Below, piece after piece: positions 26,850 through 31,056 of a DNA stretch of 64,000 nucleotides. Location of the stretch: NCBI RefSeq assembly GCF_009914755.1, contig NC_060941.1. The stretch is one strand, 5' to 3'. A model generated the notes under the pieces. That model did not search any database and had not been told where the DNA came from. It saw nothing but the letters and a program-made list of their open reading frames with translations. The translations under genes were made by a program, and so were the position numbers. The DNA is from the human T2T-CHM13v2.0 reference genome, Homo sapiens. Numbering within the stretch: position 1 is the first letter of the stretch; each line of letters opens with the position of its first letter.

Positions 26850-28191
26850 ACTTTGGTTCCAAGACCATATATTCTAGCTCTTGGGGAGATAGCACCATAT
26901 AATGGGCTGTCTGATCAACATATATACCACATTTTGAAGGACAATACCCCAACATTTAGGATATTAACCCCAAGCTGATGCTAAAACTAGACCTTCTGAT
27001 CCCTTTAAAACTTTGCTAAGCCTGTTCTGGCATCTCCACCTAATTTGCTATAGGCCATTATCCTCTCCAGTCATCAAGGGGCTATTATTCCAGCAATGTA
27101 TTAGGAAAGGCTCGAGGAGTCTTTGCCAGGAGGTTAAATTTTAAGTCAAACAAAAGTTCCCTTTTACCAGTAAATTAACTCCTATCCAAGCTTATATTGT
27201 GCCCTTCACCATCCTTAGTCCCGTGTCCTCATTTCAATTTCCAGGCATTTTCTCTTGGTTATCCCAAGTACAGAGAAGCCATATCCCTCAGCTATTTTGG
27301 TGATAATTCATTTCCTCCCACAGCAGCAATGCACTTCCTCACCTGGGCTGTACTGAGAATTGACCCTAGTTTTTGATCTAGAAACAATGAGGGGAGCCAA
27401 GGCTCATTTTTGAGCAGTCAAATACCATCCTGCATGGCTTTTGTCTTAGGCGATAGTATTCAGGTCGTGGTATGCTCTTCTTTACTAGTAAGGGCAAGGT
27501 GCTGTTTCTGAACACCTGGAGCGTTCATCAGACTCCAAAGTTCAAAGTTCCTAAGGGCATTTAGGTAGTTCAAAATTCCTAAGGTCATCAGCCTACAAAA
27601 TTTCCACTTAAGTTTATAGGTCCTACTGCTACCTTTTTAGCCCTTTGGGTTTTTATCTAGGGAACATTGTAAGCTGTGAATTCAATCTCTTTGTAACTCC
27701 GCCACTTTTAAGATCAAAGCTTAGGCATGCCTTTCAGCATAGTCTGTCTGCTGGCTGCAGGATGTGTAGGTTTCCCTACAACTCTGTAGATGCCTGTAGG
27801 CTTTCTGGCTCCTATAGCTTGCCATGAGTTGATGGCTAGCTATTCCAGACTGTAATTTTCTTTCTTTAAGCTGCTTAGGACATTTGACAAAAACTATTTT
27901 AACTCTAGAATCTTTACAATTTACATTGCTCTTATATCTTTCCAGAGCTAGAGAACTCCCATAAGCTAGTGTTATAAATTTCCAGTGCCAGAGTAAACGC
28001 ATGATACCTTCTACCTGGACTTGACCCACCACAGGTGAGCATCTTAGTAAGTGTGAGGCTGCAGCCCGCCAGGCTTATCATGACCACACTTACCATCAGC
28101 AGGAGGATGCCCCTTGCCATTGACTGGCAAGTGATTCAATTGCAGAATCTTATCCTGAGGGTAACTATCAAGGGCCAATTTTGGTAGCAAT
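26850..28191 (-). mobile_element. ERVL (HERV16-like) internal region, 5' part
   Basis: Abuts the LTR end (minus strand ...agaca|attgctaccaaaattgg); ERVL-like internal sequence. Confidence 0.6.
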
Positions 28192-29135
28192 TGTCTAAAA
28201 AGCACACCTTCAGGAAAGGACTCAAGTATAAGTAGTTTTTGTGGGAGGTGAACCTGTGAGGCACACGTGGACAGTGGGGAGGTGAGACAGGAAGGGAGAA
28301 AAGCCAATACAGTTTAGGTGAATGAATGGGTTATCACTATGGACAACTGGGGCTCCATCATCCTAGAGACTTTCTAAAAGGCCACACAGAGCATATCTCA
28401 GGAGTGTTCCACTGTGGGCAAAAAAGCTGGGTCTTTATTTACCAGCTTCTTTTTTTTTGAATAGCAAATAGTTTATTGGTAAGTACATGATTTCAACGGG
28501 AGTAATAAATTCACATGAAAAGGAGACAATAATTAAGTCAAAAGAATAAATACTTACTAATCGTCAGAAAATCTGTGGCCATTAGGGCTGGCACGTAAAA
28601 ATCCAAAATCACTCAGAGGCCAAATCTTAAAGAAGATTCGTCCTCTTATTAGTCCATACGGAATAGGTCCATAGTACCTGGAATCCATAGAATTCTGTAG
28701 ATTATCACCTTCTAACCAAACATGACCCATTGGCACCGCAGGTCTGTTCTAGAATTCATTCAGTTTTTAGGGAAGTCACAGGGCTTCCAGAAAAAAAAAA
28801 ATTAAAGCATGTCTTAAAGCATAGGTGGGTGATCCATTATTTCAGGAATCCTCGGGCCCTAAAGAACCCTGAAGACCCTCAGCCAGGACACAGGTGGGCC
28901 TTTCTCACCTGGGCCCCACCGTATATTTACCAGCTTCTGTGCTTCCTTATTGCCTGGGGCAATAACTTACCTGGCCGGTCCTCCTGCAGGCTGAGCTCAC
29001 ACCTGTAGCCAGAGCCACAGGCAGGAAGCGGTGCAGACAGTTGAGGCAGAAAACCATGAATGTGTGTGGCAACTGCCCCCTGATGCTGCAGGTGACCTTC
29101 AGGGTGGGCTGAAGGATGTGTGCATGGCACTGACA
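28192..29135 (-). mobile_element. ERVL 5' LTR (LTR16/LTR33 group) interrupted by a retrocopy
   Basis: Minus strand begins tgtcagtgccatgcacacatcc and ends ...ttttagaca. Confidence 0.65.
28451..28923 (-). pseudogene. Processed pseudogene (retrocopy) of IMMP1L, mitochondrial inner membrane peptidase subunit 1
   Basis: Minus strand 28736-28557 translates [59 protein letters not shown], matching the recalled IMMP1L C-terminus. No introns; AATAAA at 28472-28477; poly(A) 28451-28458; perfect 15-bp TSD tatttaccagcttct (28436-28450, 28924-28938). The specific IMMP1LP number cannot be assigned from sequence alone. Confidence 0.95.
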
Positions 29136-29638
29136 TTTTGAAAGTTAGGCATGGGAGCTTGGCCCTGATGTGCTAAAGAGCAGAGATTCACTAAATATTT
29201 TTGCACACTTTAGTATCTTGAAAGTAGTGTTTCTAAGCACATGCCTGGCAGTATAATGGAAGTTACTTTAGAGTAGGTAGAGACCTGAGGCAGTGATAAT
29301 GGTCCAAGTATAAAGGCCAGAGAGGCTGCAATAAGGCACTGGTCATTACAATGCAGAGGAAGAACAAATACAGAACATCATTTACACTTTTTCTTTCACT
29401 ACTATATACTATTCCATACTAAGAATGTACTGTACTACGATGAATCTCACAAATACAGCATAGAGCATCAAAAAGGACAAGGTGCAGGAGAAAATATATG
29501 GTATAATGCCATATAAAGGTAAAAGCGTGCCACTTACATATAGTTTAGAGACACGCATTGTGTGATGTGGGTAGCAAAAGTATAAAGAAACTTATTAGAA
29601 TAATAAATTCCAAATTCAGGACAATAATTAGCTTCTAA

Positions 29639-30115
<477 letters not shown>

Positions 30116-30234
30116 TAAATGAACTCAAGATATGTTTTAAAACATGTTAAAGCATAGAACTTGATGACTCAGGGTATAAATAGAAGAATGAGAACTAGCT
30201 AAGTTGATTCCACAGGTTCTTTTTTAGAGGGATT

Positions 30235-30480
30235 TTTTGTTTTGTTTTTTACTTTTAACTGTATTCGACAAATCATAGTTGCATATACTTATGGGGCACA
30301 AACTGGTGTTATGATTTTTTCAATATAAAGTGGAATGAGGAAACTAAGTGAATTAACATATTTATCCACTCAAATACTTCACCTACTTTGTAATGAGAGC
30401 ACTAGAAATTTCCTCTCTTGAGATGCATAATAGTCAATTATCAGCTATATTAAACATGATGTTCTATTGATTAAAAAAAA
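30235..30480 (-). mobile_element. L1MA-type 3' end fragment
   Basis: catatacttatggggcacaa...aattaacatatttatcc. Confidence 0.6.
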
Positions 30481-31056
30481 CTCAACTTAGGGTTTTTACA
30501 ATATGATTTAAAAATTATTTTTTTCACACACATGTATACACATATATTGACATAAGACAACAGTAAGGAAATAATTCTCATGTGTTATATCTTTCTTGCT
30601 GTCTATACTGAAGCCCCAATAATAATATTTTCATTAACTAGTGAGTTGTAATTTCCATTTGCAAAGGATTATAGAAGGCAAAAATCACAGAATTTAGAGA
30701 AATAAATGATTAAAGTAATTTTTACAAAAATGTCTCCAAAAATAGCACTATTAAGATGAATTTTCCTCAAACGAGCCAGTCACAGAGCTGCAGCTAAACA
30801 TTGTGAACAGGTTTTTATCATCAGCAGCTCCAAGGGGGAGCTGTGAACCTTCTTTCTTGTACCAGTTTTCGAGGAATAACAGCATAATCTGCCTCTGTTC
30901 TTGCACAGTAGGGCTAAAAATGACTACTTATACAATAGTGCATGATGAATGACACCACCAATGAATGACAACTACAAAAGAAACAGTATCAGTGTATTTT
31001 CCGCTAGTTGTGGTTTCTTTTAACCACTGCCTGTCTCTGCTCTCACTGACTGTTAG

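What the first reader, a model, noticed from the sequence alone, without database searches (positions are those of the whole stretch)
28451..28923. IMMP1L retrocopy appears to preserve a non-canonical, exon-skipped isoform
Seen: TSD, poly(A), AATAAA and an intronless IMMP1L C-terminal coding block that starts abruptly at VPMGH (28736). Upstream lie a 114-nt AT-rich segment (28737-28850) and a GC-rich 71-nt leader (28851-28921). Recalled, not verified: V108 begins a coding exon of IMMP1L, and the leader resembles its first exon ending ...CGAG. Inference: this is not ordinary 5' truncation but a near full-length cDNA of an isoform joining exon 1, an alternative exon and the last two exons. That isoform would skip the N-terminal 107 codons, including the Ser/Lys catalytic dyad of this S26 peptidase, so the retrocopy would record a germline splice form.
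Basis: partly seen in the sequence, partly recalled or inferred. Interest (0 to 1): 0.8.

Follow-up and report, generated by a model that had tools for sequence, protein, structure and literature searches.

The report
Retrocopy of exon-skipped IMMP1L transcript
This is a dead, reverse-transcribed copy of an IMMP1L messenger RNA that had skipped its three catalytic-domain exons, a correctly read but ordinary "fossil" of alternative splicing.

Summary
Window 28451-28923 (minus strand) is an L1-type processed retrocopy of IMMP1L. It sits between 15-nt target-site duplications and ends in AATAAA plus a short A-tail.

Its four segments map in order and orientation to the parent gene on chr11 (E 1e-22 to 1e-74). 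Every join falls on an AG/GT exon border. The structure is exon 1 (last 71 nt) - exon 2 (114 nt) - exon 6 - exon 7. Exons 3-5 are missing exactly. They total 350 nt and hold the start codon and the first 107 codons, including the regions that carry the S26 Ser/Lys residues.

One correction: the 114-nt piece is not peculiar to this isoform. It is a 5'-UTR cassette exon also present in a full-length retrocopy on chr11q and absent from one on chr12.

A second, older retrocopy on chrX has the identical exon 2|exon 6 join, so the skipped RNA was retrocopied twice. A post-insertion deletion or a reverse-transcriptase jump is very unlikely.

The copy is about 25-35 My old by divergence. It has no start codon, and I found no sign of function. 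Processed pseudogenes as records of splice variants are a described phenomenon. I could not check here whether the isoform is annotated today. Interest is low to moderate.

The parts
28924..28938 (-). 5' target-site duplication (15 nt, AGAAGCTGGTAAATA)
   Evidence: Exact repeat of 28436-28450; these are the only two copies in the window.
28922..28923 (-). 2 nt (TA) between the TSD and the first base aligned to parent exon 1. They are either untemplated or the diverged end of exon 1.
   Evidence: The parent has TT at this place.
28851..28921 (-). IMMP1L exon 1, positions 12-82 of the 82 nt recorded by the longest retrocopy. It is 5' UTR and ends CCCGAG.
   Evidence: 67 of 71 identical to C11:31645357-31645427. 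The parent donor is CCCGAG|gtaggt.
28737..28850 (-). IMMP1L exon 2, a 114-nt 5'-UTR cassette exon. Its terminal ATG is mutated to GCG in this copy.
   Evidence: 104 of 111 identical over the aligned part to C11:31623959-31624072. The parent borders are ctgctttag|GATTCC and CCTATG|gtaagt. The exon is also present in the chr11b and chrX retrocopies.
28626..28736 (-). IMMP1L exon 6 (111 nt), starting at codon V108. It is joined directly to exon 2.
   Evidence: 106 of 111 identical to C11:31569284-31569394. The junction reads CCTGCG|GTGCCAATGG. Pfam Peptidase_S26 profile positions 131-165.
28458..28625 (-). IMMP1L exon 7 (168 nt): the last 22 codons, the TAG stop at 28557-28559, the 3' UTR, and AATAAA at 28472-28477.
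   Evidence: 165 of 170 identical (the aligned stretch includes 2 nt of overlap) to C11:31568225-31568394. The parent sequence diverges from the copy exactly at the A-tail.
28451..28457 (-). Poly(A) remnant: 7 unambiguous A within a run of 9.
28436..28450 (-). 3' target-site duplication

Best explanation
Window 28451-28923 (minus strand) is a non-functional processed retrocopy. It was made by L1-type target-primed reverse transcription of a polyadenylated IMMP1L RNA spliced exon 1 - exon 2 - exon 6 - exon 7. The RNA template had skipped exons 3, 4 and 5 (134 + 89 + 127 = 350 nt). Those exons hold the canonical start codon and codons 1-107, so the copy keeps only the last 59 codons of the S26 peptidase.

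Because the insertion is fixed in the genome, the skipped RNA must have been present in germline or early-embryo cells. That step is inferred from established knowledge of retrocopy inheritance. The insertion happened roughly 25-35 My ago, inferred from divergence and recalled neutral rates. Since then the copy has drifted as a pseudogene inside an intron of LINC01483, in antisense orientation.
For: 1. Retrocopy hallmarks: a 15-nt TSD, an A-tail at the parent's cleavage site following an AATAAA signal, no introns, and a different chromosome from the parent.
2. The four segments map collinearly and in one orientation to chr11 31.57-31.65 Mb, at 94-97% identity.
3. The parent's seven-exon structure was derived from a full-length retrocopy (chr11:63621335-63622159) mapped back to the locus. 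All 6 acceptors of exons 2-7 are AG. All 6 donors of exons 1-6 are GT.
4. The exon 2|exon 6 join is exact to the base, CCTGCG|GTGCCAATGG.
5. An independent retrocopy on chrX (C23:125936810-125937206) has the same exact exon 2|exon 6 join. It has a different 5' end (exon 1 position 37 versus 12), different flanks, and a further difference in exon 6.
6. Site patterns show the chr17 copy shares derived parent states that chrX and chr11b lack. These are concatenated alignment columns 108, 111, 117, 414 and 437; column 111 is a CpG-to-TpG change. So chr17 came from the parent gene later than chrX and cannot be a copy of it.
7. Skipped-exon events in IMMP1L are listed in human cell data, and skipping of the start-codon exon was validated by qPCR in hamster cells. 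I saw only the matching passages.
Against: - No RNA evidence for the exon 2|exon 6 junction could be examined here, and no transcript annotation for the parent was available. The isoform's present-day existence and abundance are therefore unshown.
- The insertion site (CAC/AGAAG) matches the L1 endonuclease consensus TT/AAAA only loosely (the consensus is recalled).
- The chrX copy has no clear TSD, so its status as an independent L1 event rests on its different flanks, 5' end and substitutions.
- Two alignment columns conflict with the proposed order of births: column 72 (shared with chr12) and column 130 (shared with chr11b, in a T-run).
Confidence: 0.9

Rival explanations
1. A full-length (exons 1-7) retrocopy was inserted and later lost exons 3-5 through a genomic deletion.
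For: Deletions in pseudogenes are common. Short repeats exist that could mediate one: GCCAATGG opens exon 3 and sits at exon 6 positions 3-10, and TATG ends exon 2 and spans the exon 5|6 border.
Against: Both breakpoints fall exactly on exon borders. A deletion across GCCAATGG would lose the GT that opens exon 6, and one across TATG would lose a G. The observed junction keeps both. By my own arithmetic, about 15 exon-border-to-exon-border deletions exist among about 3e5 possible start/end pairs in an ~815-nt cDNA. The same exact junction recurs in the independent chrX copy.
Confidence: 0.03
2. The reverse transcriptase jumped within a full-length IMMP1L mRNA during target-primed reverse transcription, from exon 6 to exon 2, producing an internal deletion that was never a splice form.
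For: L1 reverse transcriptase is known to switch templates (recalled). The microhomologies named above exist.
Against: A jump has no reason to land exactly on two exon borders, and it would have to do so twice, in chr17 and chrX. The junction does not have the form expected from either microhomology.
Confidence: 0.03
3. The chr17 copy is not a direct product of the parent gene. It would be a secondary copy of the chrX copy, or both would stem from one expressed exon-skipped retrocopy, so the skip was recorded only once.
For: The two copies share the same unusual exon 2|exon 6 structure.
Against: - chr17 has a longer exon 1 and a complete exon 6, which chrX lacks.
- chr17 carries the parent's derived states at 5 columns where chrX has the older state.
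- No substitution is shared by chr17 and chrX alone (0 such columns in the list).
- The flanks differ.
Confidence: 0.03
4. The retrocopy is a functional retrogene, or a source of a small C-terminal IMMP1L peptide.
For: The 59-codon frame is unbroken, and an in-frame ATG (the M of VPMGH) remains.
Against: - The ATG that ends exon 2 is GCG here.
- Only the last quarter of the S26 profile is present.
- Private substitutions amount to about 3%, including a non-synonymous double change (T to M).
- An open frame of 59 codons at this divergence is not surprising.
- No promoter or expression evidence was available.
Confidence: 0.02

Closest known systems
IMMP1L (mitochondrial inner membrane protease subunit 1, S26 family), parent gene at chr11p13 (G000 C11:31568225-31645438, minus strand)
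   Same: 95% identical over the 464 shared positions (23 differences). It has the same exon 1, 2, 6 and 7 sequences, the same stop codon, and the same poly(A) signal and cleavage site.
   Different: The retrocopy has no introns and lacks exons 3-5, which hold the start codon and codons 1-107. It matches only Pfam Peptidase_S26 profile positions 129-168 of 168. It lies on another chromosome, flanked by a TSD.
The other IMMP1L retrocopies in this genome: chr11:63621335-63622159, chr12:112992157-112992812 and chrX:125936810-125937206. They are probably the HGNC IMMP1LP pseudogenes. That name is recalled; only IMMP1LP2 was seen in a paper, with no coordinates.
   Same: All are intronless copies ending at the same poly(A) site. 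chrX shares the exact exon 2|exon 6 join.
   Different: Each records a different exon set: chr11b has exons 1-7, chr12 has 1-3-4-5-6-7 (no exon 2), and chrX has 1-2-6(first 59 nt)-7. The chr17 copy is the youngest by shared derived states. It does not appear in the RefSeq table supplied with the finding.
Processed pseudogenes as 'genomic fossils' of splice variants (Shemesh, Novik, Edelheit, Sorek, PNAS 2006). Content recalled: the paper is not held, and only its entry in two reference lists was seen.
   Same: A retrocopy whose exon-exon joins reveal an alternative splice form of the parent that was present in the germline.
   Different: This is a single-gene case, but with four retrocopies recording four different splice forms, two of which share the same three-exon skip.

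Membership tests
L1-mediated processed retrocopy (processed pseudogene) | Intronless, with exact exon-exon joins of a multi-exon parent gene located elsewhere | tested here: met
   Three joins (e1|e2, e2|e6, e6|e7) coincide with AG/GT borders in the chr11 parent. The copy is on chr17.
L1-mediated processed retrocopy (processed pseudogene) | 3' poly(A) tract at the parent's polyadenylation site, downstream of a poly(A) signal | tested here: met
   AATAAA at 28472-28477 and an A-run at 28450-28458. The parent genomic sequence continues gttttag at that point instead. The tail is short, with 7 unambiguous A.
L1-mediated processed retrocopy (processed pseudogene) | Flanking target-site duplication | tested here: met
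   A 15-nt exact repeat at 28436-28450 and 28924-28938, the only two copies in the window.
L1-mediated processed retrocopy (processed pseudogene) | Insertion at an L1 endonuclease-like site (TT/AAAA; consensus recalled) | tested here: inconclusive
   The inferred empty site reads CAC/AGAAG. It is purine-rich after the nick but not the consensus.
Splice-variant 'fossil' retrocopy | A join between non-adjacent parent exons that falls exactly on real splice sites | tested here: met
   The e2 donor is CCTATG|gtaagt and the e6 acceptor is ctaattctag|GTGCC. The copy reads e2|e6 without loss or gain of a base. Exons 3-5 exist and are recorded in two other retrocopies.
Splice-variant 'fossil' retrocopy | Independent support for the isoform (transcript data or a second independent copy) | tested here: met
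   A second copy on chrX has the same junction but different ends, flanks and age. Transcript or annotation support could not be tested with these tools.
Functional peptidase S26 (IMP1-type signal peptidase) gene | A complete S26 domain that includes the regions carrying the catalytic Ser and Lys | tested here: not met
   The retrocopy ORF matches only profile positions 129-168 of 168. The parent exon with the GPSMEP motif (e4) and the exon with the KRVIG motif (e5; profile positions 58-85) are absent. Assigning Ser and Lys to those motifs is recalled family knowledge.
Functional peptidase S26 (IMP1-type signal peptidase) gene | Start codon and N-terminal membrane anchor | tested here: not met
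   The canonical ATG lies in the absent exon 3. The ATG that ends exon 2 is GCG in this copy.

The most novel reading that the evidence does not exclude
The exon 3-5-skipped IMMP1L RNA may be a long-lived, regulated germline product rather than splicing noise. It was retrocopied at least twice, at different times. In the parent, exon 2 ends in an ATG that is exactly in frame with exon 6, so the skipped RNA would encode a 60-residue C-terminal IMMP1L fragment lacking the membrane anchor and catalytic residues. The skip could also be the linear counterpart of a 350-nt circular RNA made of exons 3-5. Those exons lie between introns of 24.8 and 22.7 kb, and an exonic IMMP1L circRNA (hsa_circ_0003712) is listed in print, though its exons are unknown to me.
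Probability: 0.1. Interest if true: 0.5.

Novelty: new member of a known kind. Interest (0 to 1): 0.27.

Why it matters
The locus itself is a dead pseudogene with no sign of function. Its value is as a record.

- With its siblings on chrX, chr11q and chr12, it shows that IMMP1L produced at least four splice forms in the primate germline some tens of millions of years ago. These differ in inclusion or skipping of the uATG-rich 5'-UTR exon 2, in a three-exon skip that removes the start codon and catalytic core, and probably in use of an internal donor in exon 6.
- This gives a concrete junction (exon 2|exon 6) to look for in germline long-read data.
- It also gives dated ancestral states for the parent gene. 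For example, a Tyr-to-Cys change in the conserved DSR-Y/C-YG stretch arose in the parent after all the retrocopies were made.
- For annotation, it is a processed pseudogene that is not in the supplied RefSeq table.

Tried and rejected
- The key prior-art paper (Shemesh et al. 2006) is not held. I saw only its entry in two reference lists.
- Literature searches, seen as listings and matching passages only:
  - IMMP1L + retrocop*: 0 papers.
  - IMMP1LP*: 3 papers, of which I opened 1; it only names IMMP1LP2.
  - IMMP1L + isoform: 49 papers, 15 listed.
  - IMMP1L + exon skipping: 3 papers. Two of them only list IMMP1L among genes with splicing events. The third (hamster cells) describes skipping of the start-codon exon, not of three exons.
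  - An aniridia review gave no exon structure.
  - A uORF paper gave only reporter data for the mouse 5' UTR.
- Search for reverse-complementary repeats that could loop out exons 3-5: the last 1499 nt of intron 2 against the first 1502 nt of intron 5 gave no match at E <= 1e-3. Only these flanks were examined, not the whole introns.
- Rfam on window 27000-30500, both strands: 0 matches at gathering score.
- Pfam on the 105-aa plus-strand frame over the retrocopy and the 81-aa minus-strand frame upstream: 0 families.
- The chr5 match, considered as a fifth retrocopy, was rejected. Its homology runs 956 nt through intron and downstream DNA at 80.6%, so it is a DNA-level duplicate.

Full report
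**What is in the window**

Read on the minus strand, window 28436-28938 has the full anatomy of an L1-type processed retrocopy:
- a 15-nt direct repeat, AGAAGCTGGTAAATA, at 28924-28938 and again at 28436-28450, the only two copies in the 64-kb window;
- two bases (TA), then 464 nt of intronless cDNA;
- AATAAA at 28472-28477;
- a run of 9 A at 28450-28458, of which 7 are unambiguous tail.

A stop-to-stop frame of 63 codons lies at 28557-28748. Its last 59 codons begin VPMGH at 28736, and it matches Pfam Peptidase_S26 at E 1.8e-09. The match covers only profile positions 129-168 of 168.

**Mapping to the parent**

The window's own genome could be searched. The 501-nt stretch 28440-28940 gave 11 matches at E <= 0.001. 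Besides itself, four lie in order on the minus strand of chr11:

| Segment | Parent place (C11) | Window place | E-value |
|---|---|---|---|
| Leader | 31645356-31645427 | 28851-28921 | 1.5e-22 |
| 114-nt piece | 31623962-31624074 | 28737-28850 | 1.3e-40 |
| VPMGH block | 31569284-31569395 | 28626-28736 | 1.0e-42 |
| Last block | 31568225-31568399 | 28458-28625 | 1.3e-74 |

Against exactly delimited exons the identities are 67/71, 104/111 (the last 3 nt were not aligned), 106/111 and 165/170. The parent flanks show canonical sites at every join:
- CCCGAG|gtaggt
- ctgctttag|GATTCC ... CCTATG|gtaagt
- ctaattctag|GTGCCA ... TTTAAG|gtacca
- ttttacag|ATTTGG

**What was skipped**

Another match, at chr11:63.62 Mb, turned out to be a retrocopy with extra material between the 114-nt piece and the VPMGH block. 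Used as a query, it maps to seven parent exons. I delimited them:

| Exon | Length | Content |
|---|---|---|
| e1 | at least 82 nt | 5' UTR |
| e2 | 114 nt | 5' UTR |
| e3 | 134 nt | 29 nt of UTR, then ATG CTT CGT GGT... |
| e4 | 89 nt | encodes ...GPSMEP... |
| e5 | 127 nt | encodes ...KRVIGLEGD... |
| e6 | 111 nt | starts at V108 |
| e7 | 168 nt to the cleavage site | last codons, stop, 3' UTR |

All six acceptors of e2-e7 are AG. All six donors of e1-e6 are GT.

The coding parts of e3-e5 add up to 321 nt = 107 codons, so V108 is indeed the first codon of e6. The window's copy is e1(12-82)-e2-e6-e7, and the 350 nt of e3-e5 are missing exactly. The join reads CCTGCG|GTGCCAATGG.

Scanned alone, e5 hits Peptidase_S26 profile positions 58-85, and e4 gives a weak S24 hit. 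That these stretches hold the Ser/Lys dyad is recalled family knowledge.

The 114-nt piece is not an exon special to this isoform. It is e2, which lies 21.3 kb downstream of e1 and 24.8 kb upstream of e3. It is present in the all-exon retrocopy (chr11b) and in the chrX copy, and absent from the chr12 copy, which joins e1 directly to e3. It behaves as a 5'-UTR cassette exon.

It carries four ATGs. The last one forms its final three bases in the parent, chrX and chr11b, but is GCG in the window's copy.

**Exon skipping or later loss?**

Three arguments favour skipping in the RNA.

1. *Both ends of the gap are exon borders to the base.* Short repeats that might mediate a deletion or a reverse-transcriptase jump do exist. 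GCCAATGG opens e3 and sits at e6 positions 3-10, and TATG ends e2 and spans e5|e6. Recombination across either would remove the G or the GT that opens e6, and the observed junction keeps them.
2. *A second retrocopy has the identical join.* The chrX copy (C23:125936810-125937206) reads CCTATG|GTGCCAATGG. It differs otherwise. It starts at e1 position 37, has unrelated flanks, and joins e6 position 59 (...GATTCCAG, followed in the parent by GT) exactly to the first base of e7.
3. *The two copies are not copies of one another.* Over 477 aligned columns, the parent and chr17 share one state at columns 108, 111, 117, 414 and 437, while chrX and chr11b share the other.
   - At column 111 the change is CpG (older copies) to TpG (parent and chr17), which gives the direction.
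   - At column 437 the DNA-level chr5 duplicate sides with the older copies.
   - No column in the list groups chr17 with chrX alone.
   - Conflicting columns are 72 (chr17 with chr12) and 130 (chr17 with chr11b, in a T-run).

So the chrX and chr11b copies were born first, the parent then changed, and chr17 was born later from the parent. The same skip was therefore captured at two different times.

**Age**

The parent and the chr17 copy differ at 23 of 464 positions, 4.96%, broken down as follows:
- 15 are private to chr17: 13 clean, plus 2 at multi-state columns;
- 2 are the homoplasies just named;
- 6 are private to the parent, because all copies agree against it.

About 3.2% private change (range 2.8-3.7%) is close to the per-lineage neutral divergence since the ape/Old World monkey split. 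That figure is recalled (about 3% in 25-30 My), so the age estimate of roughly 25-35 My is inference. No other primate genome was available to test it.

**Function**

I found none.
- The copy lacks the canonical start codon, and the e2-terminal ATG is mutated.
- It retains only the last quarter of the protease domain.
- It has a private double substitution that turns Thr into Met in the NST-DSR stretch.
- It lies antisense in an intron of LINC01483, according to the table supplied with the finding.
- Rfam finds nothing within 27000-30500. The other long frames nearby hit no Pfam family.
- An unbroken 59-codon frame at this divergence is unremarkable.

**How it compares with what is known**

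The mechanism is ordinary L1-mediated retroposition. Processed pseudogenes preserving splice variants of their parents were described by Shemesh et al. (PNAS 2006). I recall that content; the paper is not held, and I saw only its citation in two reference lists.

- For IMMP1L specifically, no paper in the library holds both IMMP1L and retrocop*.
- IMMP1LP names occur in three papers. The one I opened only names IMMP1LP2, as the annotation of an SNP.
- IMMP1L appears in lists of skipped-exon events in human cells (passages only).
- Skipping of its start-codon exon was validated in hamster cells (passages only; supplements closed).
- None of these describes the e2|e6 join.
- Whether GENCODE or RefSeq annotates such a transcript, or this pseudogene, could not be checked.

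**Verdict**

This is a new, well-documented member of a known kind. The modest extra interest is that four retrocopies of one small gene record four splice forms, and that two of them independently record the same three-exon skip.

The boldest reading left open is that the skipped RNA is a maintained product rather than noise. It could encode a 60-residue in-frame ORF from the ATG that ends exon 2. It could also be the linear partner of an exon 3-5 circular RNA, since an exonic IMMP1L circRNA is listed, although no complementary repeats were found in the 1.5-kb flanks. I put that reading at about 10%.

Noticed in passing
L002 (G000 C23:125936810-125937206, minus strand): The chrX IMMP1L retrocopy skips exons 3-5 like the window's copy. 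It also joins exon 6 position 59 (...GATTCCAG, followed by GT in the parent) exactly to the first base of exon 7. This is most simply a fossil of an internal alternative donor in exon 6, though a 52-nt deletion is not excluded. No clear TSD was found.
   Followed up: partly
L012 (G000 C12:112992157-112992812) and L011 (G000 C11:63621335-63622159): Two further IMMP1L retrocopies. chr12 joins exon 1 directly to exon 3 (no exon 2), has an Alu just 3' of its tail, and a possible 8-nt TSD. chr11b carries all seven exons and sits next to an Alu tail.
   Followed up: partly
L019 (G000 C5:134242284-134242459 and flanks): The chr5 match to exon 7 is not a retrocopy. Its homology to the parent runs 956 nt at 80.6% through intron 6 and the DNA downstream of the poly(A) site, so it is an old DNA-level duplicate.
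   Followed up: yes
L021 (G000 C7:2401404-2401921): An old (84-89% identical) fragment of a processed IMMP1L copy. It holds exon 3 (24-134) joined to exon 4, interrupted within exon 4 by about 295 nt. Exon 4 positions 32-56 are present on both sides of the interruption.
   Followed up: partly
Parent exon 6, L008:1501-1611 (minus strand); window 28676-28678: All three retrocopies that cover this codon (chr17, chr11b, chr12) read TAC (Tyr) where the present parent reads TGC (Cys), in the conserved DSR-x-YG stretch. So the parent gene changed Tyr to Cys after the youngest retrocopy was made. In all, 6 parent-private changes show up this way.
   Followed up: partly
Parent exon 2 end and exon 6 start (L009, L008); window 28734-28739: Parent exon 2 ends in an ATG that is in frame with exon 6, so the skipped transcript carries a 60-codon ORF for the IMMP1L C-terminus. 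Three other ATGs in exon 2 open short frames of 2, 16 and 15 codons. In transcripts that include exon 3, the exon 2-terminal ATG is out of frame with the main ORF by my own reading of the sequences.
   Followed up: partly
Parent exons 3 and 6 (L020, L008): The 8-mer GCCAATGG opens exon 3 and recurs at positions 3-10 of exon 6. This makes BLAST alignments run 8 nt past the exon 2 border, as with the chrX hit. It has to be allowed for when calling the junction.
   Followed up: yes
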